From: Amphiscolops sp. MND2022
Taxonomy: Eukaryota
Assembly (NCBI GenBank): GCA_964187785.1
Contig: OZ076409.1
Location: forward strand, 21,082,001-21,146,000
Length of the DNA: 64,000 nt
Direction of reading: 5' to 3'
Every line of letters starts with the position of its first letter. Within the stretch, counting starts at the first letter, position 1. The translations under genes and the position numbers were made by a program. Shown in pieces: positions 5,634-44,806 of this stretch. Under the pieces are notes generated by a model. That model saw nothing but the letters and a program-made list of their open reading frames with translations. It searched no databases and was not told where the DNA came from.

Positions 5634-6817
5634 TAAGACAAGACCGGGTTGAATATTTTAATTATTGAAACCGGAAAGCTGACAGAGTAACTATTTTGAG
5701 TATTTTGAGTAACTTTACTAGTGTAAGGTTACCTGGATTAATCCATTCCCTCAACAGGGTGGTAGTGTTTATACTGCTTGGGGAATGACAATCACGTTTT
5801 TTACATGACTAGTTAAGAAAAATTGAATCATATGATCTACAACTTCATAGGGAAAATGTCCCGACACTTACAATTATTGGGGACATATAAGGAATGGCAT
5901 CTAAAAGTCACCCGATAAAATAGCAGCTTCAAACAACTTACCTGCTAAGGCAATTGCTTCAAAGTGTCAACAAATACCTCCGCTTACACATTTTACAACA
6001 GAGTGAAGTGAAGGCACGTGCCGACACAAGGCTACTACTGACTACATCAAGAATGGAATGTATCAATGCATGTAGGAATTTCAATATTATTCAAATATGC
6101 GTGAAAGGTACATTTTCATGTCAAGGCCGGAATGGGTTCAAAAACATGAAATAAACGGCACATTAAGGGGGCATGGTATAGAATGGCCTTAATTGTCCAT
6201 TATATTTTGGTTGAAGTTACTTGTATACCAAAGCCTCACAAATGCTTTTATCTAGTTTAAAATCACGAGTTTATTAGCTCCGCATAAATACCAGTCTAAT
6301 TAGGCAACAAAGTACTATAATGCATGAATTGGCCGGAACCGGCCATTTGACCGAAGTGCTCGTGAAGGCAGGCTACTTTAAGTCAAAAGGCCTTACTCGG
6401 CCATTATAGCATAAAAGCACCTATACAACAAAAGAAACGATTCTGATTGGTTGATAAATGCGCAGCAAGTCATATCACCGAGAAAGGACGTTTTGGCACT
6501 TGAACACGTTTCCTTCTCGCGATTAACTTGCTTATTGTTTGCTATTGCATCAATTCAACTTCGCAATCTACTTTCACTCCTCAGTATACTGCATCAACGA
6601 ATTGATTTGGCTAATCCCAAATCGTAATATTAACAGACCAATATAAACTACAACATATTAAAAATTTAACAGTTCGCAAACAAATATTATTGCTAAGTGT
6701 GAGTTTTAAAGTTCAATATTGGACTTGCTCAAAATGTAGGTAGGGTTCCGGGTATCATTTCTTGGTTTGTTGCCGTTGTCGTTATCAGTGTGCCATCACA
6801 GGCGGCAGCCTGCGACA
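5048..6817 (-). repeat. 5' LTR of element A (~1,770 bp)
   Basis: Same TGTCGCAGGCTGCCGCCTGTGA start and GTTCATGACA end as the element C LTRs, followed directly by TGGTGACAGGAGAC. TATAAA at 5768-5773 (-). Confidence 0.9.
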
Positions 6818-16539: not shown

Positions 16540-18270
16540 TGTCGCAGGCTGCCGCCTGTGACGGTACTTTAATAACGACAACAGCGACAAGCCAGGAGAC
16601 ATTGCCCGGCACTTTGCCTACATTTTAAGCAAGTATATTTTGTATTTCAAAACTTACTTTTAGTAACAATATTTGTCCTCAAACCATTACATTTTCCAAT
16701 ACGTTGCAGTTTATATTAGTCTGTTAATTTTACGATTTGGGACAAGCCAAATCAGTTTGATGATGTATTTATTGTAGGATAGAATTAAAGTGCAAGGTTA
16801 ATTTGACGCAATAACAAACAACAAGCAAGTTAATCGCGAGAAGGAAACGTGTTCAAGTGCGGAAACGTCCTTTCTCGGCGACGTAACTTGTTGTACATCG
16901 ATAACCAATCACATCGTTCCTTTTGAAATGTTGGCGCTTTTATTACATAATGGCCGAATAAGGCCTTTTGACTTAACGCAGTGCACGTTTGCTGGTACTC
17001 ATGTCAAATGGCCGGTTCCGGCCAATTCATGCAATATAGTATTTTGTTGCCTAATTAAGCAAGTAATTACTCGGAGCTAACTTTACATGATTTAAACTAA
17101 ATTAAAGCATTTGCAGCGCTTTAATGTCCGTATAACCTTAACCTAAAGATGGACGATTAAGGCCATCTTACCATGTCTCTTTGAAAGCTGTGTATTTTAT
17201 GATTTTGAGCCTGTTCTGGCCCTAACATGAATGTGCATTCTCACATATATTTAGATTGTATTGAAGCAATATACACGCGATGATGCATTCCATTCTCAAT
17301 AACTCGTGTCGGCACGTGCCTTCACTGCACTCCGCTGTAAAGAATGTGAGCGGAGACATTTGTTGACGCTTTGATATGATGCCTTAGTTAATAACTGATT
17401 TGATATTTCTGTCTTGATCAAACGACTTTTGAATGCCATTCCCTAAATGTCCCCTAATAATATGCGGTTGTCGGGACATTCCCTGTGAAGTAATAAATCA
17501 CATGACCCCATTTTCTTGACTAGTAATGTAAAGTATGTGAATGTCATCCCCTCACGAGTATATATATATACCGATACTCAGCCTGAGTGGGACACAATTC
17601 ATTTGAGACGCTACTAGAAAGATTGAATTACAAACGGCTTCGCTGTTATTTTTTCCGTATTGAATAATTCATTGTTAATTCGGAACTGCTTCTATGCCTA
17701 CTACTAGAAAACAGAAAAAGGCAAGAAAGTCAGAAATGCTGTCAGATATCGAGAACATAGACATTATGTTAGGAGAAAATCATTTTAACACAAGAGAGAG
17801 AGAAGGCAGTTTGAACAGTAACTTGCCTAGAAGGTCCAGAAGCTTTGCAAGCAATGAGTCTGAGAATGAAAATGCAAATGTAAGAAGAAATCAGAGAAAT
17901 GATCACTTTAGAACAAATACCGAATATGATCAAAATTCAGTTACAGCCAACTCTAGTGCTGAGGTTAACAGGTTGTCAAGTGAATTGAATTCCCGCATTT
18001 CAGGGGAAATGGACGAGATGATGAATTCTGTAGGTGTTCAGATTCAGAGGGCCATAAATGATGCGATAAGTTCTCAGGTACTTCCTCAAATCCAAAACGT
18101 TATTATGGCCGGATCGGGACACGGGACCAGAAAAGGATGGGACGTTCCGTCCGAGAGACCGGAACTAAATTCTGAAGTTCAGCGAAACTTAAATGCAAAA
18201 AATAACTCAAGGAATGAACAAGATGGGAATCAGTCAGACAATGATTTTCCTGGGTTAAATGTTCATGACA
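16540..18270 (+). repeat. 5' LTR of element C
   Basis: Matches 30086-31816 with about 13 substitutions counted by eye and no indels. Confidence 0.97.
17558..17570 (+). promoter_or_regulatory. Putative TATA box in the LTR
   Basis: TATATATATA ~130 nt upstream of the gag ATG. The homologous position in element A reads TATAAA. Confidence 0.55.
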
Positions 18271-19365
18271 TGGTGACAGGAGACAACGAATTTCCAAATC
18301 CAGTTCCTGAGTTTCTCACAGGACGAATCTCATCCAGAAATCATCTCGACAGGTCCTTTGAGGACATCAACCTCGACACGACGATCCCAGCACAAGAGAG
18401 AATCGCTACGGCTGCTGACTCCGACCCTATCACTCGACTGGCAGACGTCTTGACTACAATGCAGAATAGACCGACAGCCCAACAACTCACCATACGCCCA
18501 GTCAACTCAAATACCATGACATTCGATGGCAAAAGTGAGAAATTCGAGCTGTTCGAAGACCTATTTCACACTATGATCAAGATGCAGCCAGAAATGACTG
18601 AGCAAATGAAGATCAATCACTTCCACTCTTTATTGAGGAAAAATGCTCTTCAGACATTCAGAAACATCAGCTCAAACAACCGGCAAACTCTAGAGGACGT
18701 ATTAGTCATCTTTAGACGAAAATACGTCAAGTCCGAGTCACAGGCGACCGCCAAACATAAATGGCACTGTCTGGTCTTCGATCCCAACACGATGAAACTG
18801 CCTGATTTTCTCGAAGAATTAAACCAAGGAGCCGAGAAGGCGTTTGGTGATCATGCGCAGAAAATGATTGACAGCTTGCTTTACCCAAAACTGCCACCAA
18901 AACTGAAACGGTCCGTCAACATGGCCAGATTAGAAAATGGCTCCTACGATGAGATAGTTGCTTATTTGGAGAGAGAACTAGAGCTTAACGCCCTCGAGGA
19001 GTCAGATGACCTACCGATAGCCACAATGACCTCCTCGACTACAAAACCTAAAACTCCTCTGTCCACAGGGCAACTGTCCGATATCACTTGCAATTACTGC
19101 AAGGAAAAGGGCCACATGGTCAAAGACTGCGAAAAACTGAAAAAGAAAAAAGAGAAAGATGCCCAACAAGGCAAGTCGACGCAGAAGAAAAAATATCCGG
19201 AGTGCGGCACTTGTGGCAAAAAGACCCACCCAGAGGAAAGATGTTGGCAAGGTGCTGGTGCACATCTTAAACACAAACGCACTAAGCCTGAGGACCCAAA
19301 TGACAATAAGCCCAACATCATCGAGCTCCCAATCCTCATGTTCTAATGTTGAGTCAAAAAACTAA
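17694..19365 (+). CDS. gag: Gag polyprotein (starts inside the LTR; 32-nt deletion near 19315 shifts the last codons)
   Basis: 550-aa ORF with a capsid-like region and two zinc knuckles. The true C-terminus SSSSQSS...ESKN* sits in another frame and matches element A. Confidence 0.92.
18271..18284 (+). promoter_or_regulatory. Primer-binding site of element C (lies within gag coding sequence)
   Basis: TGGTGACAGGAG directly after the LTR, complementary to a tRNA ending CUCCUGUCACCA. Leu-like; identity uncertain. Confidence 0.8.
19356..19362 (+). promoter_or_regulatory. -1 ribosomal frameshift heptamer A AAA AAC
   Basis: Correctly phased just before the gag TAA. The -1 frame (CTA ACT TCG...) is open into ORF 19461-20030. 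Conserved in element A. Confidence 0.85.
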
Positions 19366-22300
19366 CTTCGCCACGACTCCAATATAACGAATTAATATCT
19401 GTCCGACAATACATCAGATCGGACCCTCCAACGCAGACTTTCCACCAATACAATCAGCAATTGATGGGCTATCCCTCTGTTGTCTGGCAGCACCAGATAG
19501 AAAAAGCCACCATCATCACCTACAATAACACCCATTTGTTCCAGAAACCGATTCCTGTTTGGGACCCTGATGACACCACCACCTTCACTACACGGTTCAG
19601 GCCCATTCCCCTGATCGACGATTACAATCCAACATACATCGATCCAGACTACGGCAGAGATCCCTACTGGGACACCGAACTTTACAACCAAGATTCACTA
19701 CAAATTCAAAATGTCCTAGACGATATTGACCATTATAATAGAACAGTCCACGAGAACCCTCCAATTACCCATAACAAGAAAACAAGAGCGCTAATTGAAA
19801 ACTGGCAAATGAATGATGGCACAAACCATCCAGTGTTCCCAAATCCATTGGGGACCGAGACCCATGACAACAATGTTGAACCCATACCACAATCATTGCT
19901 AGACGAGAAACAGTTCCAAAATGTCTTAATCACTAGAGACGGTGAACCAGACTGTATACCCCTATCAACCAACATCAACCTCAAATGCAAAAAACGCATG
20001 TGTATTTCCCAATGGACTTTGGGGAATTGACCATTGACGGACTCATTGACACTGGAGCGCTGTCCAGTGCAATTCCTGAAATGGACCTCCGGAAAATTCG
20101 ACTTTTATCTCCACAATCCGTTATCCGGGAAGGTCCGCCTCCGAATTTCCAAATAATGGTCGCTAATGGGCAATTGGAAACTCCTAAGAGTACAATAGAC
20201 CACAAATTTGAAGTTGGTGACATCGAGTTTCATGAGATCTTTATAGTCATGGAACACCTGACAGGTCCGATTATTGGCCTAATGTTCCTTCAACGAAACC
20301 ATACAGTTCTGGACATGAGACAAGGAATACTGAATTTCCCGTTCTTCTCAATGCAGCTCAAAACAGCTGACCACAAATACTCGAATGTATTAGAACCAAT
20401 TCTCAACCCTATTGAGATAACTATTCCACCAAATGATAGAGTCCTAATTAGGACCAATTCCCTACTGTACCCTGAGAATGCTGTCACTGGAATTTTGCAA
20501 CCGAGCGACCTTCTACATGAAGAGGGCGACATCACATTCTGCCCAGCTCTGATCACTCTGAATGACGGCAATATATTGATACCAGTGAACAATTTTACAG
20601 ACCACCCATATAAACTCAAAAGGGGACTTCATATTGCCATATTCTCTGTAATGACGCCAGAACAGATGAAGTATGTCAAACCGGTAGACCCGGCATCAAC
20701 CTGGCACCTTTTGCAGAATGACCAGGAGCAGGCAGCCCACTATGTCAGCAGTCTCATCAAGACAAACAGAAATCCACAAAACTCCGAAAATTATTGGTTC
20801 CCGACTCCAGAAAATCTTGGAAATCCTGAGGAACACACACCTATACAAAAACGAATCCTTAGAGAATTACAGGCCTTACAGGACTTCGAGACACTCGACC
20901 CCACTACAGATGCAGAATCGCGTGCAAAATTTTTAGAAAACTTTGACTGGAAAGATTCCACCTTTAATCCTGAAGAGAAGAAGAAAATCGAGGAATTGTT
21001 AGTGGAATTCCATGACATCTTTGCACGACACCGATTTGATATAGGCATGAATGAGGAATTCAAGGTGAAACTGACGCCTAAGGACGATTCCCCAGCCTAT
21101 TGTCAAAGCCTTCCAGCTCCTATCAACTTGAAGGAGGACATCCTAGTTGAATTAGCCATGTTACACAAATATGGCATAATAACTACACTGCCATTTTCGA
21201 AATATGCAAGTCCAATATTCGCACAATAGAAGCCGAATGGGAAACTCCGACTCTTGGTTGACTTGAGAAAAATCAACAACCTCATCTCGGATGATTACAT
21301 CAACAATAATCACCCCGTCAGTACACTAGTTGATGCTGCCCAACACTTGGCAGGCAAAAAACTGTTCTGTAAATTAGACTGTTCGCAGGCATACCACTGC
21401 CTACCAATGGCCGACCAACGTTCAATCGAAATGTTGGCCTTCAATTTTGCCAGCCGCACATTCGCCTACAGACGTTTGGCACAAGGCCTTAGCCGATCAC
21501 TATCCGCATTCTCGAGTTTCATGAGGGAATACCTCGACAAAGTCATTAAAGCGGATCAGTGTGCCCAGTATGTGGACGATATCGGCATCGCAGCCAACGA
21601 TGTTGACCACCTCATGACCAACCTGAGAGCTACTTTCAAATGCATTCAGGAAGCAGGCCTTAAGTTAACAATGCACAAATGTCACTTCGGTGCAAAAGAA
21701 ATTGATTTTCTCGGACGGTATATTACCCCACAAGGCGTCAAACCCCAGAAACAGAACGTGCAAAACTTTCTGGAGAAAACCAAATTCCCGAAGTCGAAAA
21801 AGGCTTTACAACGATATTTGGGATTCCTAAACTACTACAGGAATTATGTCCCAAGACTCTCCGAACGCCTTGCTCCATTCTACAAGATGCTCAAAAATGA
21901 CGAAAAGGTCCTAATATCGAAAGAATTAGTCCAACAATTCGAAGAAATCAACAGAGCACTAGACAAATGTTGCGACTTGGCCCTACAGCAACCCATTCCA
22001 AACAAGCAAATAGCACTAATGACTGATGCAAGTTTTGGTGCAGCCGGGTACGCGGTCCTAATCGAAGACGACCCAAGCCAGAAATTTACGTCGCTCAGAA
22101 AATCGTATGCACCAGTCGCATATGGATCAAAAACTTTCACCCCAGCACAGATCAAAATGTCAATTTATGCCAAGGAATTCCTTGCAATCTATTTTGCATT
22201 CAAAGAATTTGGACATAACTTCTGGGGTGCGCCGAAACCGGTCATCATCCTTACGGACAACAAAGCTGTCACGAGATTTTTCCAAACAAAAATCATACCC

Positions 22301-24561
22301 CCAGCCCTGTGGATCGCGTGTGATTATGTCATTCAGTTCAATTTTGTCATAGCACACATCCCAGGGGCACAAAATACAGCTGCCGACTATTTGTCCCGAT
22401 TGGAAGCAGATCCGAAGGACAAATTGGTGATGAAAATTCGTGAAGATGTACAAACACTACCAATCGAAATCAATGTCCAATCCGCAGGGGTGTCACAAGA
22501 AGAACAAATCTTCTACACCAATGACGACGATGAGACAGAAGAACAGTATTGGGCAAGAAAAGAAGCAATCAGGAAAAATCCAGCAACTGATGAGCCCACT
22601 GTTACTATACAAACTTTGTCAACAAATCTGGTCAAGCAACACCCCGATATACAAATCCGATTGAAGAAAACGAACCAGATCATTATTGAGCAATCCAAGG
22701 ATGCAGTACTACAACAATTGAAGGCAAAACTCCTTCATGAAGATTATTCAGAAAACATGCTGCAACAGGATGCCCGATACAGACACTATGCAAATAATCT
22801 GGAACGAATTGTACTAAAGGACGAAATCCTGACAAGGCAATACTTTGATAAAACAGGGAACGTTAAATACCATCAAATTCTGCTCCCGCAACATTTGCTT
22901 CAGGAACTGCTTAAGTCTCTCCACGGGACAGCACATAAACATCCTGGGATTTCAAAAATGTTGCAGGAAATTAGACAGAGGTATTACTACGCTAGCATGG
23001 CTAAACACGTCAAAAAGTGGGTAGAAGGGTGCGAACAATGTGCCAGAGACAAAAGAGTCCCTAACGCAACGATAACACCTGAACTACTCAACTTGCCCGA
23101 ATGGGACCTTGGACCCGAAGACGCCATGCAAATCGACCTATTGCCGAATCCTCCCCCAAGTGGAGGATATGAAAATGTCCTAACGGCAATTGATGTATTC
23201 TCCAGATATTTGTTCGCCTATCCCCTCACGGACGCATCAGCGATCAATGTAGCAAAAGCGGTCATTGACATTATGACTAAACACTCATATCTACCAACGA
23301 CTCTTATCACTGATAAAGGTACTGCATTTACTTCTACAATTATTGCGGAGGTTACGCACATTTTGGGCATCACACTCAAATGTGCAACGACGAAACACCC
23401 GCAGACAATTGGGAAATTAGAGCGAACTCATGCCTCATTGAAAACAAATCTCAAAATGGCATGTGGAGAATATCGCCGACAATGGCACAAATACTTGCCA
23501 TTAGCAGTACTGAATCATAATACTAGTTATCACGCCAGCATCGGTTGTGAGCCTACGAGGGTATTCCACGGAAGAATTCCATTTAATATTTTGGATCACA
23601 AGCTTGGAAATAATCCAACGAGCAGATTAACCCCACAACCGAATTTGCTGAAGAAATCCAAAACCGGACAAAAATCCTGATTGACAAAACGAAACAGAGC
23701 ATTATGCAGTCGTATATCAAGTACAAAGAATATTACGACCGCAAAGCAAAAGCCGCTCCACTAAAGGAGAACGAATATTGTTTTGTCTTACAGCCGAAAG
23801 CGGACAATCAAGGATCAAAAATTCCATTCCGCGATTACCGTTGGGTGGGACCATTTGTAGTCCAAAAGGTTTTGCCAAATGAAAACTATATAGTACGACG
23901 GATCAATACGAACAAAACTCAAATTTTGCATCGCATTCGCCTTAAGAAGTTTGTCCCCAATCAACCGATTGAGGATAATTTCCGACAACAACAGTTGCAG
24001 CCAGATGAAGAATTTGTCATTCCGCAAGATGGTTTATACGTCATAACGTGGGAAACCGACTTTGGCGAGCAGCTAGTTACACGAGGCCGCGAGACTATTC
24101 CGACCAGCATGCCGAATGGCGAACGGCCGAACGCGCCAGAAGCGAATACAAAAGACGTAGCCGAGAATGAAGCGGATTACATAATCACGACTGACGAAAC
24201 AAGTTACGCTGACCACGCGGCGCGGAACCGGAATGAAAGATTAAATCATGACGTCACAAAAAAGAATGAAGCTAGTGAAGCGGCTAGCAATGACAAATCT
24301 GATTGGCCGAATCCGGCCGTTTCCCCAAAAAACCAAGAAAATTCATTGCCGAATACGGCAAATAGACCGGAAAACAATGAAAATTTTTCAGAAAGAAACT
24401 TGACGAATGAAAACGATACACAAGATTCTCCAAATAGGGGGGATGATATTATCGTGCCCGAAATATCCGAAAACGATGCTTGAAATGAGAGTCTGAGCCC
24501 TAGAGGAGGGAAATATAATCTCAGGCCTAACCCAAACTACTCAGAGGATTTTAGATACTAG
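19362..24561 (+). pseudogene. pol: Pol polyprotein: protease, dUTPase-like insert, RT, RNase H, integrase with GPF motif and acidic tail; mildly disrupted
   Basis: Motifs LIDTGA; YVDD; TDAS, KEFLA, TDNK; HHCC and D-D-E (QIDL, TDKG, LERT); WVGPF; ends YNLRPNPNYSEDFRY*. Lesions: 1-nt deletions at ~20001 and ~23617, stops at 21227 and 24481. Confidence 0.95.
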
Positions 24562-24779
24562 GAAAGATTGAATTCGGCTCTAGAAACGAGCCATGAACTT
24601 TTTCCTTCTATCTTTTTTTTTCCAGAGACCCAAACATCATTTTTTGAACAAATAATGGGACACACGAACGACCCCAGCAAAGATAATAAATACGGGGTAC
24701 AGAAACAAAATGGAAACAAATGAAATAACAAAATGAACAAATTTACAGTCTGAAGGTGTACAAATATACAAATGTACAC

Positions 24780-27700
24780 TTAAGGTTTAGAAGTTCCTGG
24801 GGCAGACTCCCCAACCACGGACGAAGCAGAGGATCGGGATCCACTTTTCTCCAGTCTTCTGCGTTTGGTACTACTAGGGAGCTTCAATGCACTCTCATCC
24901 GCAACAGAATCATCCATCCCGCCGCGGGCAGGAATTTTCTCCGGAGCAGCTAGCACAGTGCGGTAGGAGGACGACAAAGACTTGTAAATCTTGGATCTCC
25001 CAAAATTGTCAACATAAGTCCAAGGGTCATAACTGGGAGAGAAGGCTGACTGACCAAAGGATGCACTGAGCAAGGAAAACCTCGCCAAACTTGAGTCGTC
25101 ACTGCACAGAGTTGAAGAACCGGACACACCAGCCATGTAACTCTGGCAAGGGAGTATAACATCAGTAAATCTGCTATGCCTCCCAACAGTCGAAATCTTT
25201 CCAGCAATGACGTCTGGATAGTCAGGACTAGGTGTTGTAACGCACAGACAGCACAACTTAAAGAGGTATAACAAATAGCCTCGGGCCTGGAGAAATTCCA
25301 AATTGAGCAGGAAATCAATCAGATCAGAAGATGAATTTGACAGATCATAATCTGGACCTTAGCTGATCTGCAGGTGGTCGAGCAACTCAGTATATTGGTC
25401 CCGACAAGCTGACTCGTTAGCTTCGGCAACCCAGGAACGGAGACAGAAGGTACTATATAAGAGGTCAAAATGGCGGAGAGCCACCTCAGTTGGTCTCTTG
25501 AACAAGATGTACGGATCAAAAGTAGCGAGGCCTTTAATAATATCTGAACTCAGACCAGTCTGGCAAAGCACCGAGTTAATCAGATACTGGATGTAATGAA
25601 GTGCATCATTGACGAACCCAGTTTTCACGGTAGTAGCAGTCTTCTGGATAGCTGCCCGCTCCGACTTCTTTCCAAAGTGAAGCCCTTCGGCCCTAGCCTT
25701 ACTGGAAGTGGTCACTTTGTTGGTGAGCTTGAGCCGTAGTAGGAACTCATCTTCAGCCATGAAGGTAGCTTCACTCGTATGGAACTTCAGCAGCAGGAAC
25801 CAGGCATTTTCTAATGGGGCAGTGTCAGAGGTGTAACAACGGGAACACAGTTTGTATAAAAACCGGCTAGTTTTCCCGCATAGGAAGAAGGAGGCGTCTC
25901 GTCTGTATAAGAGATTCACTTTGAAACTGGATACATCTACAAACACAAACCAATGATGGCCTCATAAGGCCTACTAACGAGGATCAACTCACTATTTGCG
26001 AATACTAACAATCTCCAACGAGCTTGCAGAAGAACTCCAACTTCACTACGAAGAACTCATCGCAGATGAGGGACCATTCGAAACTTTGCACCTAAAAAAC
26101 AAAGTGGAGGAATGAATCCCTAAACTACCCCCTTCGTATGGTCCTAAGGTGAAAACCTGACTAATTAGCCCGAATCACAAAGCACACATGAAAACAACTA
26201 ACTCTATTGTGTGATCCCTGTCCTTCTTGTCTGGGTGCATGGACGGCTAGGTACCGAGCGATCGCCTTCCACTCAGCTATAAGTTCCCTGCACAGTGTAG
26301 GAACCATCAGTAGTTCCAGCTTATGGGAAGCGATAGCCTAAACATGGGAAGGCACGTGAACCAATGAAAAGGTTTGCTACCACGCCAACCCATTCCCTTT
26401 AGTATGATGCAGTTCACTGTGAAAATAAAGATGAGAAGGCTATCTACCTTGGAGAGTTCCGGACTGCGTAGAGCCCATTCCTCGTTGAGGGATCCACCCA
26501 GAGACACTAGCAGGGCTTGAAGCACGGAAAAGAAATCCAAGTGTCCAAAGACACTACAGCTAGACTTGTGCATCAGATACTGCAAGGATAGGCTCTCGAA
26601 CCGGAAACAACTTTGAACTCCACAGGTGAAAAATTCGGAGCAATCGACGACTCGGATCAGGTCAGCCGGACATCCAGAACAGGCCACGATCTCACAACGG
26701 GTAGACGTCACAGAAAGGAGCCGGGACAAAGACCCTAGCTCTCCAGCCAAATCAGTTGAGGGTAAGGAGCTTCGACAAATGTATACGCGACATAGTTCTG
26801 TGCCTCTCCAAAATCGAGCAGACATGTAGCAGTAGACCCCCTTGCTCTCGAATTCGATGCCAAAACACTGTTGGGTCATTATCTGGTCTGTGACATCTCC
26901 CATCACGGAGTTGAAGATGTGTTGGAAAATCGCCTGAGAGGGACAGATCAGACTTATCTTAAATAGATTAAGACTCAAGGAAGTGCCCTAAATGATAGTA
27001 CTTACAGATAGACACTCTTCGCTCAATCGAAATCGCAGAAAGCAGCCTGATGATTAGTATAGGAGCCGACTCTGGCCCACAAATTGCGCAAGACTGAGAG
27101 GTTACCATGCGTGTGGATGAAGTCTCCAATCAGACACAACTGCGTTCGGGAACGGGATTCTGGAGTAACCACAGCAGTTGTCGTACCCTTTATGAAATCT
27201 TCATAAAATGGAAATCGTTCTCCAACGTCAACGAGCTCTACATGGATGAACTTGGGAAGTTCTTTCGCTAACTCTATCTTTGTCAAGATTTTTCCATTCC
27301 ATCCTCGGACGCGGTGCTGGATTCTTCCGCTGACTGGGTCGGTGCTCTTTAAGTGCTCGTATCTCCACCGCTCATCGCGTCGGAGATGCCTTTCTGAGCG
27401 GTGGTGACGAAGTATCTCAAATGCTCCTTTTGTTTTGATGGAAAAGTTTTTCTTGCACATATGACACCAGACCATGAGGGGATTGTGCAAAGGATCTGCT
27501 GGGCCTGATATAAAGGAGCGTGTCTAGCCAATTTTCGCAAAAAATTCTTCTCTCATTGGAATTCCACGTTGGGGCGCTCGTCTCTCCCTTTTCTGCATTT
27601 TAGATTTGACAGATTTTTGGTCCCTGGTCTCTTTGGTTTTCTCCTGTATTTCCAACAAGGTAGCGTCCTGACTGCTGACCCCACTATTCTCGGTTTCAAC

Positions 27701-28917
27701 GGTCCGTTGTTCGGACGGGTGGACCACCGTGGAAGAAGAGGCTTGGGGTAGTGTAGGTGTCTGCTCGAAGGTCTCCGAAATTAGAGCCATCTCCGTGGCA
27801 CTATCGCTCTCACCAAGGAAAGAAGACTCTCCTGTGCCCCCTGAGCTTTCAACCCCAGTCTGGGTATTTGGATCACTATCCGTCTCACTCATGCTCGATT
27901 CATCTCCATATCCCGAGCGGGTGTTTGGGCTCGTCCTCTACTCTGAAAATGGGCTGTTTTTGATGGGGCAACAGCGGGGGTTCCTCTGACGGCATCCAGG
28001 ACCATCCGTTCCATTGTTGAATATGACATCCGCAAAGTCGCGTCAGTGAGCACTCTGAGGAGGTTATACACTTGTGTTTCCGTAAAAGCTACCGCTGGAT
28101 GTCCAACGGGTAACCTGAAAGACTTGTTCTCTTCAAAATATTGTTTGAGCAAGGCCCTGCTCCGTCCTTATAATTGGGGAAGTCCATCAATCTCCACGGG
28201 CACACCAGGTATCCTTGCCCCACTCGGTCCTTGATGTTGTGTACAGAAACCGAGTTCGTCTCCTCCATCGGTTCCTGATTCCATGTCCACCGGGTTGCGT
28301 CCATAAAACTCAAAGACGTCGAAATGGGACGTGTCCTCAGCAGAGCTGTCTTGTCCACTATGACTGGGCGGGAAGTAAGTTTTGGGTCGCCCACTGGGCA
28401 AAGCAGGGGCATCTTGAACTGACGAAGTAGTATCCTCGCCTGCTGGATCAGGAGCTTGTTCTTGCGTTGATAATGTCAAATCTGATGTCAAACGCAGTTC
28501 CGGCAGTTGAGAGCCAAGAGTAGTGGCAACGTGTAGAACGGATTCAAGTCCAGATAGATTGGCAACGGGATCTCTATGTTTGGGAGATGATATTGGGGTA
28601 CTGGACCGTTCAATTCCCTGATTAAGACTGGCATCTAAAGAATCCAAAAGTCCAAGGTCCTGACCGGGAATAGCACTCGACGTCGATACAGCAGTGAGTT
28701 GGCTAGTCCGCTCTGCCCGTTCAATCTTCTCAACAACGGACTCAGCATAAGCAGTGACATCCTGCTCACTATCCTGGCTAAGTGGGGAAAAGTCTGGGAG
28801 GGGTAGTGGTGCAGGAGCGTTACTAGAAACTGCCTTCCCAGATCCGTCATCGGCAATTACCGTCTTCACAGACTCGATAGCTTGAGATGAGGTTGGTGCT
28901 TCAAGGTTTTCTGCCAT
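24780..28917 (-). CDS. Antisense spliced cargo gene: disordered N-terminus, BED-type zinc finger, degenerate hAT-transposase-like body, C-terminal NLS (this copy is disrupted)
   Basis: Exons 28917-27006, 26933-26448, 26337-26203, 26091-26010 and 25936-24780, joined by four GT-AG introns that keep the frame. Contains WCHMCKKNFSIKTKGAFEILRHHRSERH and KRRRLEK. In-frame stops at 28168, 27524 and 25359; frameshifts at ~27915 and ~27023. Confidence 0.8.
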
Positions 28918-28989
28918 CTGATTCTCTAAACAGAAGGGAATAAAATGTAGCGGTATGCTTCCTTGATAGTAATCCATTTACCGCGTTAG

Positions 28990-29045
28990 AAATCTTCCGG
29001 AAGTTCTCTCAAATGCAAATGGAACACGTGATCACGTGTTCAACA
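28990..29045. promoter_or_regulatory. Motif cluster in the divergent spacer (putative internal bidirectional promoter)
   Basis: CTTCCGGAAG palindrome (28994-29003), octamer ATGCAAAT (29013-29020) and perfect 20-bp palindrome GAACACGTGATCACGTGTTC (29022-29041). Confidence 0.55.
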
Positions 29046-29388
29046 AAAGAAACAGGAAGCAATTGTGAACAAATTTCAGTCCTGATCAAACTGAGTTTGT
29101 CTGAAAATATTATAGAAAACCAAACCAACCTGAGGCTGACATTCTGAGTCAAGAAGGCAAATCCGGGTAAACATCAGGTTATCAAAGGGAGCTGACTAAT
29201 TATGAAATTCCATTCAAGGATGTTTGTGACGAATCGGGGCAATTGACCAAAGTTTTAACCGCCAAACTGAAACTTCGGGAAAAAGCCTAACTCGGCTAGT
29301 TTCTTGGTTCAGACGAATTCATTCTACCTAAAACTTCATCTCAACTCAGTTGCCTCTACTAGCTTCAAAAATAGCAAAGAAAGTCATC

Positions 29389-30174
29389 ATGAACAAATAT
29401 AACCTCGCAAGGAAACTATTCGGTCTGGAAGAATCTGACTCTGATGATTCTGAGAGATCAGTTATATATATATCGAGCAGCGAGGGAGAGTCATCAGATT
29501 GGGAGACCGACTGTTCTACAGACACGGAGCAGCTTGTTGCAAGAATCGAAAGAGAAGTCACCTCCAGCCCCGTGCTAATTGGGGGCCGCATAATGACTAT
29601 GGAGGAATCTTCAGAAGACGAACCAGAAGCTGGCCCCAGTTCTTCCCAGATACGAACAGACATGACTCCGAAGTTTGACCACAAGTACTTTGACGAGGAG
29701 ATGTGTTACGCTCCCCCAAAGAAAGCAGGCAAATCTCGGATTGAAATTTGCAAAACCCTAATGCCCGTGCCAGAGTCGCCTATGTCACCGCCTGATCACG
29801 AAAGAGGGCCGAGTATGGACACCCCCCTGATGCAGCCTGGTATGGGAGGTTTTCACGCCTCCTACCACGTGCAAAACACCAGGCCCTACGAAAATATTAG
29901 CACGAAGTTATATTCAGGATGCATGGTCTGTGGCAGATCCTCAGAGGCTATCAAGAAAGAGAATGTGGAATGGTACGTCGCAAGGTCCAAGCCTAGAGGG
30001 GAACCCGAATACATAACGAAGATCAGAAGGGAAGCGTACGAAAAAGGACTAAACCCAGGCGCTTTTCTCTTCATAACACCCGCAGTGTCGCAGGCTGCCG
30101 CCTGTGACGGTACTTTAATAACGACAACAGCGACAAGCCAGGAGACATTGCCCGGAACTTTGCCTACATTTTAA
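29389..30174 (+). CDS. ORF3: acidic, Ser/Pro-rich 261-aa accessory protein ending inside the 3' LTR
   Basis: Intact ORF from ATG 29389. The last 89 nt lie in the LTR and are conserved, mostly with synonymous changes, in the element A LTR. Confidence 0.82.
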   Translation: MNKYNLARKLFGLEESDSDDSERSVIYISSSEGESSDWETDCSTDTEQLVARIEREVTSSPVLIGGRIMTMEESSEDEPEAGPSSSQIRTDMTPKFDHKYFDEEMCYAPPKKAGKSRIEICKTLMPVPESPMSPPDHERGPSMDTPLMQPGMGGFHASYHVQNTRPYENISTKLYSGCMVCGRSSEAIKKENVEWYVARSKPRGEPEYITKIRREAYEKGLNPGAFLFITPAVSQAAACDGTLITTTATSQETLPGTLPTF

Positions 30175-31816
30175 GCAAGTATATTTTGTATTTCAAAACT
30201 TACTTTTAGTAACAATATTTGTCCTCAAACCATTACATTTTCCAATACGTTGCAGTTTTTATTAGTCTGTTAATTTTACGATTTGGGACAAGCCAAATCA
30301 GTTTGATGATGTATTTATTGTAGGATAGAATTAAAGTGCAAGGTTAATTTGATGCAATAACAAACAACAAGCAAGTTAATCGCGAGAAGGAAACGTGTTC
30401 AAGTGCGGAAACGTCCTTTCTCGGCGACGTAACTTGTTGTACATCGATAACCAATCACATCCTTCCTTTTGAAATGTTGGCGCTTTTATTACATAATGGC
30501 CGAATAAGGCCTTTTGACTTAACGCAGTGCAAGTTTGCTGGTACTCATGTCAAATGGCCGGTTCCGGCCAATTCATGCAATATAGTATTTTGTTGCCTAA
30601 TTAAGCAAGTAATTACTCGGAGCTAACTTTACATGATTTAAACTAAATTAAAGCATTTGTAGCGCTTTAATGTCCGTATAACCTTAACCTAAAGATGGAC
30701 GATTAAGGCCATCTTACCATGTCTCTTTGAAAGCTGTGTATTTTATGATTTTGAGCCTATTCTGGCCCTAACATGAATGTGCATTCTCACATATATTTAG
30801 ATTGTATTGAAGCAATATACACGCGATGATGCATTCCATTCTCAATAACTCGTGTCGGCACGTGCCTTCACTGCACTCCGCTGTAAAGAATGTGAGCGGA
30901 GACATTTGTTGACGCTTTGATATGATGCCTTAGTTAATAACTGATTTGATATTTCTGTCTTGATCAAACGACTTTTGAATGCCATTCCCTAAATGTCCCC
31001 TAATAATATGCGGTTGTCGGGACATTCCCTGTGAAGTAATAAATCACATGACCCCATTTTCTTGACTAGTAATGTAAAGTATGTGAATGTCATCCCCTCA
31101 CGAGTATATATATATACCGATACTCAGCCTGAGTGGGACACAATTCATTTGAGACGCTACTAGAAAGATTGAATTACAAACGGCTTCGCTGTTATTTTTT
31201 CCGTATTGAATAATTCATTGTTAATTCGAAACTGCTTCTATGCCTACTACTAGAAAACAGAAAAAGGCAAGAAAGTCAGAAATGCTGTCAGATATCGAGA
31301 ACATAGACATTATGTTAGGAGAAAATCATTTTAACACAAGAGAGAGAGAAGGCAGTTTGAACAGTAACTTGCCTAGAAGGTCCAGAAGCTTTGCAAGCAA
31401 TGAGTCTGAGAATGAAAATGCAAATGTAAGAAGAAATCAGAGAAATGATCACTTTAGAACAAATACCGAATATGATCAAAATTCAGTTACAGCCAACTCT
31501 AGTGCTGAGATTAACAGGTTGTCAAGTGAATTGAATTCCCGCATTTCACGGGAAATGGACGAGATGATGAATTCTGTAGGTGTTCAGATTCAGAGGGCCA
31601 TAAATGATGCGATAAGTACTCAGGTACTTCCTCAAATCCAAAACGTTATTATGGCCGGATCGGGACACGGGACCAGAAAAGGATGGGACGTTCCGTCCGA
31701 GAGACCGGAACTAAATTCCGAAGTTCAGCGAAACTTAAATGCAAAAAATAACTCAAGGAATGAACAAGATGGGAATCAGTCAGACAATGATTTTCCTGGG
31801 TTATATGTTCATGACA
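30086..31816 (+). repeat. 3' LTR of element C (carries the ORF3 C-terminus and a second copy of the gag N-terminus, 31240-31816)
   Basis: Direct repeat of 16540-18270, followed by the TSD AGTAG. Confidence 0.97.
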
Positions 31817-33826
31817 AGTAGCATCCTTACAGTTCTGGGGACGTGGTCTAGATCTAGATTATATTGTTATTTCTTGCATTGGTGGCCATTTAGAGCTTCA
31901 TAACAAATTGCTGGCGTGTAAAATTTTTTAAATAAACAATTTTAAACGTGCAGTATGGTGATATTATTATTTTCTTCTATTGACTGTATTGTTGACTTCT
32001 CTTTCCCAAATTGTACATTTTTTTCCGCGTCTGTTAGTAAGATTGAAGTATTTTAGTGCCAACCTTGGTTTCAGGGACCCCAAAAGCTCAAAAGGTCTGG
32101 CATTGAAGATGAGGAGATCCGGAAGCGAAACTGAGGCAGGAAGTTTGAGTTAACTTCCTTCATGTAGTGTGATCATACTGCCAACTTGAGTCGAATAATA
32201 GTGTATGAATTGAGAGTCCCGTCTTGCAGAGACGCCGGGTTCAACGAGGTGTGAATTCAGAAGCGTGATCTTCATCGCGCGACTAGCGCAAAGTATTTAT
32301 ACCTGACCCATGATCTGATAGGTGGAGTTTGTTTGGATAAACGTTCCGAAAAAATTGCCCAACTTACAGTTATAGTGAAACCAACTCCAAAGAAACGTTC
32401 CAAGTCTTATTGAAAACCTTCGAAAACTCTTTTTCGTATTTAAAGATGTCTGAGAAGACTCAGAAACATAAATTGCGACGAAACTTTTCCGATATGTATC
32501 AATTATTGTATCAATTAGAAAAAATGTAAAATATACAATTGTAAAATTGATACAATTAATTGTAAAGGAAAATTGTTTCTAGGAAATCTTAATATAGGAC
32601 ACGGATTGTTCTTGAAAAATCTTTTTATCCACCAGCTTCTGCCTCAAACAATTCTATATCATCAAACCATATGCTATTTTCATGCTTGCAAAGATACGGG
32701 AAAGACTGAACGACTCTTTTTTGGGTTTTTTGGCACAATCCGGTTTTCTTTCTAACTTTTGAAGTGGAGGCATCCCATGAAAGTTCAGCAGAAACAAATC
32801 GCATTACAAACGCAGAGGACCCTCTCAGTGACTTTCTACACTGTAAGCTTACCGAAGTATAATGATCCGAAGCTACTTTTGTTTTTTAAGGTTTTCGGTT
32901 AAACAAAAAGTTTTTCAAGTTTCAAGGGCGACTTCTTAGGATAGTTTTTGGTTCTGTGGGACTAATGAGTGTTTTTTCAACGGATATGAAAACACATGCG
33001 CTTTTTCCGGCTCTATGCAAGAGCGAGCGACTTTTTCACTGGAGTTTCACTGCTCCAATTAAATTCAGAAGTTTAAACCTCTTCTGACATGGAGCGGCTT
33101 CATTACGGAAGAACGACATTATTTTCTTAATACTGTATGCCCGTTTGCTTCTTATATACGTTATTAATATTGTTCATTTTGAATATATACGACACTTCTG
33201 ACAATGCGTGAAATAGTTCGAAAGAAAAACCATTTTTACGCACGGAGCGCGTTTTTGTATTTTTTATCGTTTTAATTAATAAAACACTGTTAGTATGGTG
33301 TTTTTCGATTTCAGTCTTAATTTTTTCCAGACCACAGAGCTCAAACTGAAGGTCCACTTTCAATACAGACTTTGTTCACGTCGTTTGCTTTGGTTTACCG
33401 GCGTGGCCAGAGCTGCTTCCTTAAGCCGAACGACAAATTCGAACGGCCTCATTTTATTTATAATCAAGAAAAATGTGCTTCGTAACTTACAGGAACTTTC
33501 ATATAGTTCAAGCAGCTCCAACAGAGACGAAAATGAAAATACAATAATGGTAGTTTTTACTCACATGAAACTGATAAATCGATAAAATTACGTTTGGTCA
33601 AGGAGAAGACTCCAATTCCATCTGGTTAGTTTGCGTTTTTGTTACAAAATGCGTCCGAGTCTTACAGAGACAAATTTTCGAAGACGCCTCCTCTTTTAAT
33701 AAAGCGCAATATAGTTCGGATATAACGTCAAAAGTTCGGATATAGCGTTTCAAATCGAATATGAAATTGGGACCCTTTAGTCTCCGGTTTTGTAGATAAC
33801 ATTAAAAAAGTAAAAAATTGAAACGG

Positions 33827-36800
33827 TGTCATATTCGGTTCATTCCGGTTTGACCTCTACCGAGTTTCGGTACACAAAACTGTATGTCTAGATGTCTAGC
33901 CTACCTGTTTATTGATAAACAAAAATTTGCTGCGCATTCAATTAGATACTGCAGTATATACATTTGGTATCTACAGTATAGTCAGTGAACTATAGAAATT
34001 ATCTTAACACTTCTTTTAACCTAGAGCTTAGTTGTTGAGAATAGAACATGGAGCAGTCAGCCCATTTTTAAACAAATTGTAAACTTCATAACAAAAGAAA
34101 GCCATGACAGAAAAAAACACAGTACCGAACCTAGACGCAAGGGCTTTGGACGGAAATGCAATATTCACACAGAGACAGTGGTTGGAACGATTCCGGCAGT
34201 TCACTAAACGGGAACATAAAAAGTCCCACCACTAATGAAAGGAAAAGACATCACAGTAAACGAGTGGATCGTTAAAGAACAGCTTATCCTGGAAGATTTC
34301 ATCTGGGGTGTGGGACCCGAAGCACTGTACCGAATAACCCGTGCCAAGTATAAAACGGAAGCGGACATTATCAAAATAAAGGATTTAATCCGGTTATTCA
34401 CCGAATACTACTTACCGAAACGCAATACCCATCACCGTCGCGGCAATTTTTCTGGGCAAATCAAACGGAGGAAGAAACACCCGAAGACTTTTGGAGAAGG
34501 TTAATTGAAATCGAAAAATAATGCAATTTCAGTACATAATCAGCTGGAGAGCTACTGATTTCCAAACATATGACAGCTATCACCGACAAAAAATTTACAG
34601 GACAAAATGATGAAAAAAAACACTGGAACTGAGGAAGACGATCGAACTAATCAACTGAACAAATATGAAAAGTAGAACAAGAAAAATACGATACCAGAGG
34701 CACTAATTTCGGCAAAAGAAAGACACATGATAAAAAAGAACCGATACAGAGAATGGAAATAAATGTTCGGTGCGAAATCAAAAATTAGACCGACCGGAAA
34801 TATACCATGCAGATTTTGTGGAGCTCCGAACTCAACATCATTACATAAATGCCCAGCAATAGACATAAATTGCAACAAATGCGGAAAAAAGGACAGTACG
34901 CAAAGGTATGCAGACAAACATATACCAACAACCGAACAGTGAAAAGACTAACCGCAGAAGAAACTGGTGACCGAGACGAAACATCAAGTGAATCATAAGA
35001 GAGCATACACCACATCAAAGCGACAAAGAAAAATTAAGAAAAGAACAAACAATTCATGGCAACAGTGAAAATAAACGGAAGAAAGAAAGACTTCATATTC
35101 GATACCGGATCATCGATATCAATAATGCCAGCGGCCGAAAACGTATTAGAGCTAACCGGGATACAAAAAGTCACAAACAGATACCAAGACGAGAACAAGA
35201 ACGAAGTAAAGTTCCGAGGAAAAGTCCCCGTAGACATGGAATACGAAAATAACAAACAAAAAATATGTTTCCTGATAATCGAAGGAACAGACATAACACC
35301 ATTACTAGGGATGGACTGGATGAGAAATAGCAAGCTAACAATCGGTAAAATACAATGGGCCGAAAATAACCAGTCAGAACGCAAGAAAGTCTTCAACAAT
35401 TTTCCGAACCTGTTTGAAAATATCGAAACAATAAAAGACACCGAAATAAAACCCAACAAAAAGCCAGACCGGTACCGTTTCACCTACAAGACGACGTAGG
35501 ACGAGAACTAGAAAAATTAAAAAAGACCGGATGTTTGGAATAGATCAATGACGTCGATGAAGATTGCTTTGTATCACCGTAGTAATAACTGTAAAAAGTG
35601 GTAAACCGGTAAAAATAGCATTAGACTCACGGAAACTAAACGACAGTTGTACCAAAATGAGACCACATATGCCGAACATGGAGGAGTTATTAAACCAAAT
35701 TTCGGAAGAAATCACACGCGACCGAACAGTACAACTATTTATAACAAAAACAGATTTAGATTACGCATACGGACAGATGAAATTGTCCGAAAAAACAAGC
35801 CGACAATGCGTATTTGCGATAACCGAGCGTTAATTTAACGGATACTACCTATTCAAAAAAAAGTTCTACGGTCTCTCCGATATACCAACGATATTTCAAG
35901 ATACAATTGACCGAACACTCGGATACAGTACACCAGCTTGGTTAGACGACATCATTGCAGTAACCCGGGGGATCAAACAAAAACACGAGAAAAAACTATT
36001 TGATAATCTGATCAAACTAGAAAAAGCCGGAAACCGAGCGAGTAAAAGAAAATCTGAATTTTTTATGAATCAGACGAAGTGGTTGGGCCACGAGATTGAC
36101 GAAAATGGAATAAAACCTTTTGAAGAAAACGCAGAAGCCAATTCAAAACTGAACCCACCGCAAGATACAAAAGAACTGAAATCACTTCTCGGAGCAACAC
36201 AATACATGACAAAACTTTTGCCGAAACTTTCGGAACGAACAAATAGACTCCAAAAACTACTGAAGAAAAATGGAACGTGGAATTTGGGAACCGAACAAGA
36301 AGAATTTGGAAAAAAAAACAAATGTTGACCGAAGGCCCATGTCTAGCACACTACGCAAACGAAAAAGAAAAAATAGTAACGACCGACGCAAGTTCAACCT
36401 GACTGGGAATTACACTATGGCAAAAACAAGAGGACGGAATCACGAAACCGATAGCATACGGGAGTCGATATTTGAATGAAACCGAACAGAAATATTCCAT
36501 CGGTGTACTAGAATTAGTGGCAATGGTATGGGGATCAGAAAAATTCCAACTTTATTTATATGGAAAAAAGTTCTTTACACTTTACATCTTTACACCGACC
36601 ACCAAGCACGCACTAGAATCATTGATAAAGAGAAACCGAAGCAATAATCAATACAATGCGAGATTAGCGAGATGGTTGGACCGCCTAACTCATTTCCATA
36701 TAGCAATACAGCATATCGCAGGCAGCATTTTGAAATTTACCGACCATCTCAGCAGAAATCCGGTAAGGGGAGCATCGCCGGAAGAAAATACGATGAGAAG

Positions 36801-39616: not shown

Positions 39617-39723
39617 AGGGGGACGCTTTGCACTAAGTTTCCACCGGCCGGACTTGGCCTCAGTAGTTTTAGTAGTTTCTGTAAAAAGTGGACCGATCAG
39701 TGTGAGGTCTGTGATCTGGAGAA

Positions 39724-40174
39724 AACAAGACGAGAACGTCTAAAGTCGGCGCTATATCTAAGGCTCAAAAAGCGCAAATCTTTTTTTGTTAAAAAAATTG
39801 AAATTTTCTTTTTCGAAAAATGTCGCATAGTGCCGAAAAATGTAAAAGGGGGACCGTTTTTGATTTACGAATAACATTTTGTTGCAAAATAACAAAAAAA
39901 CTCAAAGGGGGACGCTTTAGTCTCGTCCGTTTTTGTAGGTTACCTTGAAAAAGTAAAAAATGAAAGGGTGGTCCCTTTGCACTAAGTTTGCCTTGGCCGG
40001 ATTTGGCCTTATATGGTTTCAGCGATGTTCCTAAAAAATGGACCAATAAGTGTGAGTGATGTGGTCTGAAGAAAAAAAAAACGTCACTGCTATAATCTGG
40101 CATTTTTCCTTAAGAGGACTGTCACTGTAAGAGTCGGGAATTTTTCCTTTAAAGGAAAATGCGCCGACTAAAAA
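39724..40174 (+). mobile_element. Complete HINE/DINE-1-like copy (~450 bp)
   Basis: Starts AACAAGACGAGAACG. Sub-terminal inverted repeat AGTCGGCGC (39744-39752) / GCGCCGACT (40161-40169), with a local hairpin at the right end. Confidence 0.75.
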
Positions 40175-41280: not shown

Positions 41281-41707
41281 TTTTTAGTCGGCGCTTTTTC
41301 CTTTTAAGGAAAAATGTCCGACTCTTACAGAGTTACCAAAACTACTTAGACTACTAAAGCTACTTGCCGGCCAATGCAAACTTAGTGCAAAGGGCCCCTT
41401 TTCATTTTTGACTTTTTTAACGTAACCTACAAAACCGGACAAGTCTATAGAGTCCCCCCTTTTGCATTTTTCGGCACTATGCGACATTCTCCTAAAGAAA
41501 AAATCCGAAATATTTTTCAAAAAATGTTTTTTCGTTCCCAGTTGGCGAAAAAGTGGTTTCCGAGTCTTATCGAGCATGAAAGGCACCCTTTGGGTGTCTC
41601 GAAACTGTTTTCTGAGCTTCTCATAAATAAATGCTGGGAATGTCGTAAAAACTTTGCGCTTATTGTGCATTAGATATAGCGCCAACTTTAGACGTTCTCG
41701 TCTTATT
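41281..41707 (-). mobile_element. HINE/DINE-1-like copy
   Basis: Reverse-orientation homologue of 39724-40174 with both termini. Confidence 0.72.
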
Positions 41708-44477: not shown

Positions 44478-44806
44478 ATGACGTCATCGGCCAACAGGGA
44501 AAGGTCACGTGATTGTTCTGCTGGAAGGAAAAAGTTGGGCGTCTCCGAGATCTTTCTGCGGCTATGCACTCCTTTTCTGGGACGCCAAATGGAGCTAGAT
44601 GAGTTCAAGATCACCATGGATCTCATTTTGCAACAATTTCTTGACCAGCTGCCAAAACTGGAAAGGGGCCAACTTTACGCAGACCTAAGAAGCTTCGCAG
44701 AATCTTTGATGCGCGATTTGGATATCTGGAATCAAGGCACCAACCATGCTTCTCGAAACGTTTTGATCAAAGAGAAACTCAAGAAAGTCCATTTCAAATT
44801 GATAAG
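44478..44806 (+). CDS. Possible coding exon of an unidentified host gene
   Basis: GC-richer open frame in AT-rich DNA, ending AAG|GTGATT. No recognisable domain. Confidence 0.35.

What the first reader, a model, noticed from the sequence alone, without database searches (positions are those of the whole stretch)
30086..30174. The first 89 nt of the LTR are protein-coding and under purifying selection
Seen: ORF3 enters the 3' LTR as VSQAAACDGTLITTTATSQETLPGTLPTF*. The diverged LTR of element A (6817-6729, -) reads SQAAACDGTLITTTATNQEMIPGTLPTF*. By manual count, 11 codons differ synonymously (including TAA/TGA) and 3 differ in amino acid, while the neighbouring LTR sequence is much more diverged. 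This is internal evidence that ORF3 is a real gene shared by both families. The integrase attachment site therefore doubles as coding sequence, reminiscent of HIV nef overlapping U3.
Basis: seen in the sequence. Interest (0 to 1): 0.8.

Follow-up and report, generated by a model that had tools for sequence, protein, structure and literature searches.

The report
Gene overlapping LTR, polypurine tract lost
A large family of animal jumping genes (gypsy-type LTR retrotransposons) carries an extra gene, conserved as protein, whose last 28 codons lie inside the terminal repeat, and its most numerous branch has lost the purine-rich primer site such elements normally need yet still inserts with precise ends, likely helped by a fixed hairpin at the start of the repeat.

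Summary
Confirmed and extended. ORF3 (29389-30174, 261 aa) ends 89 nt inside the 3' LTR. The codon count is right (11 synonymous, 3 non-synonymous), but the neighbouring LTR is not more diverged in that pair (79% vs 76-87%). Element A has its own intact ORF3. Across 20 subfamilies omega is 0.117 for the LTR codons (0.073 past the hairpin), and only the sense frame is stop-free. The overlap persists (86-92 nt) in relatives at about 30% identity. Correction: the first 23 nt are frozen as nucleotides (att end plus a 9-bp predicted hairpin), so SQAAACD is not evidence of protein selection. New: the distant groups have a G-rich polypurine tract (PPT) that is itself read as codons. The window's branch has a C-rich octamer there (1,366 junctions vs 668) yet shows recent insertions with exact 5-bp duplications. 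ORF3 has a conserved Inr/DPE-like internal promoter and no membrane segment, so it is not Env. It is most likely a soluble accessory regulator (SUMO-interaction-like motif, inferred). No expression data were available.

The parts
16540..18270 (+). 5' LTR of element B (1731 nt, TG...CA)
   Evidence: target duplication at 16535-16539 and 31817-31821
17694..18270 (+). N-terminal 577 nt of gag lying inside the LTR; the frame continues through the LTR end and the PBS
   Evidence: 568-589 nt in 8 elements, omega 0.171
18271..18282 (+). Primer binding site, 12 nt complementary to the 3' end of a host tRNA-Leu(CAG)
17694..24562 (+). gag-pol region in Ty3/gypsy order (protease, RT, RNase H, integrase), interrupted by stops and frameshifts in this copy
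24502..24513 (+). Purine run at the end of pol, candidate central PPT (inferred)
   Evidence: the four codons use purines only in 26 of 26 elements where the motif was found (28 examined)
24780..28977 (-). Antisense gene in three or more pieces (BED-like zinc finger, hAT-transposase-like C-terminal part), broken in this copy
29319..29352 (+). Predicted internal core promoter of ORF3: Inr-like motif (A+1 at 29321) with DPE-like motif at +28..+32
   Evidence: +28 in 16 of 20 subfamilies, +29 in 3; background 3 of 272
29389..30174 (+). ORF3, 261 aa accessory protein: acidic SIM-like N-terminus, Ser-Pro-rich middle, His/CxxC and two helices, C-terminal tail
30063..30072 (+). T-rich box upstream of the primer position (U-box-like), also coding
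   Evidence: sequence; present in both junction types
30078..30085 (+). C-rich octamer at the PPT position, where related groups have a G-tract
30087..30108 (+). 9-bp inverted repeat with a 4-nt loop at LTR nt 2-23 (predicted hairpin), frozen at synonymous sites
30086..30174 (+). Coding part of U3: last 28 codons and stop of ORF3
30086..31816 (+). 3' LTR of element B
6729..6817 (-). Same 89 nt at the start of element A's 5' LTR; A's ORF3 and 3' LTR lie left of the window

Best explanation
The 89 nt are the tail of a conserved accessory gene (ORF3) of a gypsy-type LTR retrotransposon, read across the plus-strand primer position and the U3 end, likely from its own internal promoter; the first 23 nt are also a fixed nucleotide signal predicted to form a hairpin, which likely helps set the left end of the cDNA now that this branch has no polypurine tract. 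Shown: the overlap, purifying selection on the protein, the synonymous freeze at the junction, the absence of a purine tract, and precise recent insertions. Inferred: an Inr/DPE promoter about 68 nt upstream makes a subgenomic ORF3 mRNA ending in the 3' LTR. Because U3 of the 3' LTR templates both LTRs, every LTR and solo LTR starts with these codons. Inferred mechanism of priming (about 50%): RNase H leaves the C-rich fragment behind the T-rich box as the plus-strand primer, the cut being positioned by the T-rich box, the hairpin and a co-adapted RT/RNase H. Inferred function of ORF3 (about 35%): a soluble nuclear regulator that docks on SUMO through a phospho-SIM and helps the element escape silencing or be transcribed.
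For: Stop ends 89 nt into the LTR in 94 of 95 intact copies (95 of 112 ORF3 loci passed the intactness filter). The LTR start is at this point in 17 of 17 elements with both LTRs and in 12 of 12 distant ones, overlap 86-92 nt at about 30% identity. Omega 0.117/0.073, and 0.055 and 0.143 in the two distant groups. The sense frame has stops in 0 of 20 subfamilies, the other five frames in 6-17 of 20. Of 34 fourfold-degenerate columns only the 4 at the junction are invariant. Stem pairs are broken in 2 of 846 cells and 7 of 405. Hairpin probability is above 0.5 in 18-19 of 20 and 9-10 of 10 subfamilies. A derivative family that lost most of ORF3 keeps the pairing while changing and shortening the tail (5 copies). 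No purine run longer than 2 nt in the last 25 nt in 20 of 20 subfamilies, against a G-tract in 23 of 23 distant loci picked by protein homology. Exact junction counts 1,366 versus 418+250. 5-bp duplications in 10 of 10 elements whose right end was fetched, LTR pairs 98-100% identical. The branch is one side of a 100/99 split, with 18 diagnostic RT/RNase H positions. Inr+DPE spacing. SIM-like motif in 31 of 31 close and 8 of 12 distant homologues, against 3.9 and 1.3 expected from shuffles.
Against: No RNA or protein evidence of expression. No two-sided compensatory change in the stem, so it could be a DNA palindrome. In the window's own copy a longer competing stem wins once 100 nt downstream are included, as in 1-2 other subfamilies. 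Four decayed G-tract copies break one pair. The RT tree has no outgroup, so loss of the PPT rests on parsimony and on the PPT being general. A conserved purine run at the end of pol offers another primer. SIM, Inr and DPE are short loose motifs, close homologues are not independent, and 4 of 12 distant proteins lack the SIM pattern. No known family or fold supports any function.
Confidence: 0.62

Rival explanations
1. Plus-strand synthesis in this branch starts only at the purine run at the end of pol (central PPT), and the exact U3 end is made afterwards by a cut at the palindrome, possibly by the element's own hAT-like antisense protein or integrase, perhaps through a circular intermediate.
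For: The pol-end run uses purines only in 26 of 26 elements and resembles the G-tract of the distant groups. HIV G-tract mutants switch to central-PPT priming and 1-LTR circles (PMC13332604, section 7 part 1 read). The antisense protein scores 0.93 to hAT-dimerisation clusters. U3 is frozen over 23 nt while the U5 ends vary.
Against: The purine run, the hairpin and the antisense gene are also present in groups that keep a normal G-tract. In HIV this route gives no detectable integration, whereas here ends and 5-bp duplications are exact. The octamer is itself biased at synonymous sites, as expected of a primer.
Confidence: 0.15
2. The inverted repeat is a double-stranded DNA site (integrase or a BED-finger protein) unrelated to priming, and the C-rich octamer works as an atypical primer purely through RT adaptation.
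For: No two-sided covariation. Loop bases 13-14 are nearly invariant. The element encodes a BED-like finger. PPT sequences are known to be matched to their own RT (PMC5371799 and PMC3185511, passages).
Against: Subfamily-level variants are C/T changes opposite G, which keep G-U pairs on the RNA-sense strand, and the sense strand folds better than its complement as DNA (-8.8 vs -6.7 kcal/mol).
Confidence: 0.2
3. The codon pattern comes from an antisense frame or from nucleotide-level LTR signals, and ORF3's tail is not translated.
For: The antisense frame sharing third positions also gives a low ratio (0.19), and the near-palindrome reads the same heptapeptide on both strands.
Against: That frame has stops in 17 of 20 subfamilies. 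The sense stop sits at a fixed place with TAA, TGA and TAG all used. The tail motif is kept at 30% identity.
Confidence: 0.02
4. ORF3 is an envelope-like protein, as in errantiviruses or Tor elements.
For: It sits between pol and the 3' LTR and has a predicted internal promoter, as shown for Tor3b/4b env (PMC4402516, passages).
Against: 261 aa, no hydrophobic N-terminus, best 19-residue hydropathy 0.8-1.6 in 16 proteins, mostly low-confidence or disordered model, no Pfam family.
Confidence: 0.03

Closest known systems
HIV-1 nef overlapping the 3' PPT and U3 (overlap recalled; only a reference title naming 'nef 3'PPT' was seen in PMC13332604)
   Same: An accessory gene is read through the plus-strand primer site and the U3 attachment end.
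   Different: This is a Ty3/gypsy retrotransposon with no env. ORF3 has a predicted internal promoter rather than splicing and no similarity to Nef. HIV G-tract mutants lose integration, while this branch integrates with exact ends.
Foamy virus bel/bet genes (PMC6950176, passages)
   Same: [quoted passage not shown]
   Different: Retrovirus with env; no sequence similarity found; no antisense hAT-like gene.
Oikopleura Tor3b/Tor4b elements (PMC4402516, passages)
   Same: Animal Ty3/gypsy elements whose third gene is transcribed from an internal promoter.
   Different: Tor ORF3 is a transmembrane glycoprotein. The words 'overlap', 'PPT' and 'polypurine' do not occur in that paper.
Plant elements with additional ORFs: Grande, RIRE2, Retand (PMC7264820, first third read; PMC11963269, term search only) and bdelloid rotifer ORF3 elements (PMC5408684, abstract start and term search)
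   Same: Conserved extra sense or antisense ORFs between pol and the 3' LTR, function largely unknown.
   Different: Here both a sense gene and a split antisense gene are present. No LTR overlap or PPT loss was mentioned in the parts seen.
Yeast Ty1 (gag starting inside the 5' LTR, recalled) and Ty3 (PMC5371799, passages)
   Same: Coding sequence crosses the LTR end and PBS; PPT recognition is matched to the element's own RT.
   Different: Their primers are purine runs. Here about 580 nt of gag and 89 nt of ORF3 make both LTR ends coding.

Membership tests
Ty3/gypsy LTR retrotransposons | Protease-RT-RNase H-integrase order after gag | tested here: met
Ty3/gypsy LTR retrotransposons | Direct LTRs with TG...CA ends and a short target duplication | tested here: met
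Ty3/gypsy LTR retrotransposons | tRNA primer binding site after the 5' LTR | tested here: met
   12-nt match to host tRNA-Leu(CAG)
Ty3/gypsy LTR retrotransposons | Polypurine tract next to the 3' LTR | tested here: not met
   Absent in 20 of 20 subfamilies of the window's branch; present in the two sister groups and in an unrelated gypsy element in the window. An atypical member, not a non-member.
Named gypsy clade (Tor, errantivirus, Mag and others) | RT phylogeny with reference elements | not tested
   No named reference RTs were held; the tree holds only this family
Env-bearing errantivirus/Tor-type elements | ORF3 with signal peptide and transmembrane anchor | tested here: not met
   hydropathy scan; no Pfam family
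Nef/Bet-type accessory genes | Frame crosses the primer site and U3 end under purifying selection | tested here: met
Nef/Bet-type accessory genes | Sequence or structural homology to Nef, Bet or Tas | tested here: not met
   the models are low-confidence, so remote fold similarity is not excluded
Nef/Bet-type accessory genes | Expressed from a subgenomic mRNA | not testable with these tools
   promoter motifs only
Phospho-SIM proteins | Hydrophobic core followed by Ser/acidic residues (PMC12751080, passages) | tested here: met
   31 of 31 close, 8 of 12 distant
Phospho-SIM proteins | Binds SUMO | not tested
   the genome search returned ubiquitin-type genes in the 6 loci translated, so no complex was modelled

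The most novel reading that the evidence does not exclude
A thriving animal LTR retrotransposon lineage has abandoned polypurine-tract priming at the 3' LTR: the left cDNA end is specified by a structured signal (hairpin) embedded in the coding tail of an accessory anti-silencing gene, making this a natural, integration-competent PPT-less retroelement.
Probability: 0.35. Interest if true: 0.85.

Novelty: new variant of a known kind. Interest (0 to 1): 0.66.

Why it matters
A purine-rich primer next to the 3' LTR is treated as a general requirement of LTR elements and is used by annotation tools. In HIV, two or three G-tract changes cut infectivity sharply and abolish detectable integration (PMC13332604). 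Here sister groups with 83-85% identical RT-RNase H differ by a G-tract versus a C-rich octamer, and the C-rich branch is the more numerous. That is a ready-made natural pair for asking what RT actually recognises at the primer/U3 junction. The family also shows complex-retrovirus organisation in a retrotransposon: an internal-promoter accessory gene, an antisense gene and coding sequence at both LTR ends. ORF3 is an unannotated protein family with thousands of candidate loci in this genome.

Tried and rejected
Expression: no RNA holder was listed. Splice acceptor at the LTR junction: set aside because several subfamilies lack the AG. A displaced PPT 51-61 nt upstream: rejected, it is broken by synonymous changes in several subfamilies. 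The 20-bp palindrome at 29023-29042 as a promoter: found only in the window's copy, 0 of 20 representatives. Cyclin-docking RxLF motif (recalled): 29 of 31 close but 0 of 12 distant homologues, so not general. Pairing partner for the octamer elsewhere in the element: none. Pseudoknot between loop and octamer: considered by eye, no covariation. Homology and fold: Pfam, Atlas best 0.79, PDB profile search 0 hits, AlphaFold full length pLDDT 50.8, C-terminal part 68.1 with two confident helices, Foldseek viral and PDB nothing at E<=0.001; the wide VIA search had not finished when I stopped. Host SUMO was not recovered, so no complex job was sent. Earlier scan notes: none. Literature searches found no description of this family, of a PPT-less LTR retrotransposon, or of an ORF3 entering the LTR. 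The library lacks most subscription journals and repeat databases, and no supplements were read, so this is weak evidence of novelty. Rows dropped: 17 of 112 ORF3 loci not intact and 1 with a 95-nt tail; 3 of 20 upstream stretches not paired; 7 of 17 right ends not captured; 1 of 24 distant loci; 4 of 30 RT rows; 2 of 28 pol ends.

Full report
Observation. Element B spans 16540-31816 with 1731-nt LTRs (1718/1731 identical), a 5-bp target duplication and gypsy domain order. The frame with ATG at 29389 stops at 30174, 89 nt inside the 3' LTR. The claim that neighbouring LTR sequence is much more diverged is wrong for this pair: 79% here, 76-87% in the next eight windows.

ORF3 is a real gene. 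A genome search scored 146 of 8,199 candidates, most of them full-length and open. One is the 3' end of element A just left of the window, intact and in frame, with its own target duplication. Of 112 fetched ORF3 loci 95 were intact, and 94 of these end exactly 89 nt into the LTR, using all three stop codons. In 17 of 17 elements with both LTRs the repeat begins there (two alignments ran 1 and 4 nt further through matching flank bases). On 20 representatives clustered at 90% identity, ML omega was 0.079 for the body, 0.117 for the 28 LTR codons and 0.073 for codons 8-28, with omega=1 rejected. Only the sense frame is free of stops; the antisense frame that shares third positions has stops in 17 of 20. 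A profile search found full-length relatives at 26-36% identity, none named among the ten clusters looked up. Some are in this genome; one has no match above 40% here. In the distant groups the overlap is 86-92 nt, the LTR starts at the same point in 12 of 12 pairs, and the tail has omega 0.055 and 0.143.

The first 23 nt are a nucleotide signal. Of 34 fourfold-degenerate columns in ORF3 only the four at the junction are invariant. LTR nt 2-23 form a 9-bp inverted repeat, the most stable 25-nt fold along the ORF3 tested (-16.9 kcal/mol; best elsewhere -11.5). Variants are almost all C/T opposite G; 2 of 846 and 7 of 405 pair cells are broken. Loop changes can alter the amino acid, and a five-copy derivative that lost most of ORF3 keeps the pairing while its tail is shortened and changed. 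Against: no two-sided compensation, four decayed copies break one pair, and in the window's own copy a longer stem competes. The invariant heptapeptide is therefore dictated by the nucleic acid; protein selection is shown by codons 8-28.

The polypurine tract. In 20 of 20 subfamilies of the window's branch the last 25 nt before the LTR hold no purine run longer than 2. An unrelated gypsy element in the window has a normal tract. The distant groups, picked by protein homology, have a 6-8 nt G-rich tract in 23 of 23 loci, read as Pro-Gly-Gly or Pro-Arg-Gly; the window's branch has a C-rich octamer read as Pro-Ala. Exact genome-wide counts are 1,366 C-rich junctions against 418 and 250 G-rich ones, among 5,344 LTR starts, controls 0. 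The C-rich branch has LTR pairs 98-100% identical, 5-bp duplications in 10 of 10 captured right ends, and long open pol frames in two of three internal regions read. It is one side of a 100/99 split in an unrooted RT-RNase H tree of 26 rows and differs from both G-tract groups at 18 positions, clustered in the thumb/connection region and next to the last RNase H motif (region names recalled). Loss is the parsimonious reading but no outgroup was used. The PBS is ordinary, 12 nt of tRNA-Leu(CAG). A purine-only stretch at the end of pol is kept in all groups and could be a central PPT.

How it most likely works. ORF3 is likely expressed from its own promoter: an Inr-like motif 67-69 nt before the ATG has a DPE-like motif at +28 in 16 of 20 subfamilies and at +29 in 3, against 3 of 272 background sites (motif definitions recalled), and the pair recurs in 14 of 23 distant loci, 8 of them near-identical. 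Tor3b/4b elements give a tested precedent for an internal promoter (PMC4402516, passages). Because the 3' U3 is copied into both LTRs, selection on the tail shows in every LTR, which is why the comparison with A's 5' LTR worked. For priming I favour the C-rich fragment serving as an atypical primer, positioned by the T-rich box upstream (such boxes matter in other elements: bioRxiv 10.1101/2022.12.06.519325, passages), the hairpin and an adapted RT (primer-RT matching in Ty3: PMC5371799, passages; lack of a PPT consensus: PMC3185511, passages). Central-PPT priming with a later cut is the main rival; in HIV that route yields circles without detectable integration (PMC13332604, passages and section 7 part 1). 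ORF3 has no membrane segment, is largely disordered in the model, and has a His/CxxC/two-helix core and a conserved tail. Its N-terminal motif fits a phospho-SIM (PMC12751080, passages; census), so a SUMO-linked nuclear regulator is my best guess, untested.

Comparison and verdict. The layout works like HIV nef (overlap recalled) or foamy virus bet/bel2 (PMC6950176, passages), but ORF3 is not a member of those families and is not Env. Extra ORFs between pol and the LTR are well known (PMC7264820, first third; PMC5408684 and PMC11963269, term searches). Nine literature searches found no PPT-less LTR retrotransposon or ORF3-LTR overlap, in a library that misses most subscription journals and repeat databases; supplements were not read. 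The overlap alone would rate about 0.45. The sister-group contrast in the primer site, with the frozen hairpin, makes a basic question about reverse transcription directly testable: new variant of a known kind, interest 0.66.

Noticed in passing
window 24780-28977 (-); L155-L157, L216-L219: All three groups carry an antisense gene in about three long frames with a BED-like zinc finger; the last frame scores 0.93 to hAT-dimerisation clusters in the Atlas (no Pfam hit). It may be a captured, intron-containing hAT-derived gene inside an LTR element.
   Followed up: partly
window 17694-18270 and 31240-31816: Gag starts about 580 nt inside the LTR and reads through the LTR end and PBS, omega 0.17; with the ORF3 tail about 38% of the LTR is coding.
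   Followed up: yes
window about 29090-29165: Element B lacks some 520-670 nt between the antisense start and ORF3 (414 nt apart versus 931-1082 in six others). The missing part holds repeated CGCCATTTT and CCAAT-like motifs (YY1/CCAAT labels recalled), a likely antisense promoter.
   Followed up: partly
window 24502-24513: Purine-only codons at the end of pol in 26 of 26 elements: candidate central PPT or relic of the original 3' PPT.
   Followed up: partly
window 33827-39617 (+): An unrelated decayed gypsy element with LTRs of about 225 nt and a textbook 25-nt purine tract (39361-39385) before its 3' LTR.
   Followed up: partly
L220, L223, L228, L234, L241: A multi-copy derivative that lost most of ORF3 but keeps the G-tract and the stem.
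   Followed up: partly
L050 (G000:C1:47788500-47798400): Five tandem copies of a 1545-nt unit, each with an intact ORF3.
   Followed up: no
G000:C8 from about 35.59 Mb: Dense tandem array of tRNA-Leu-like 3' ends; 855 pattern matches genome-wide, many here at 180-700 nt spacing.
   Followed up: no
window 59920-62970 (-): Exons of a host gene with immunoglobulin I-set domains and a weak LRRCT hit.
   Followed up: no
window 6900-8350, 15300-15620, 39600-46400, 55400-55600: Several copies of a dispersed repeat with inverted arms, probably non-autonomous DNA transposons; both LTR elements sit next to or within such copies.
   Followed up: no
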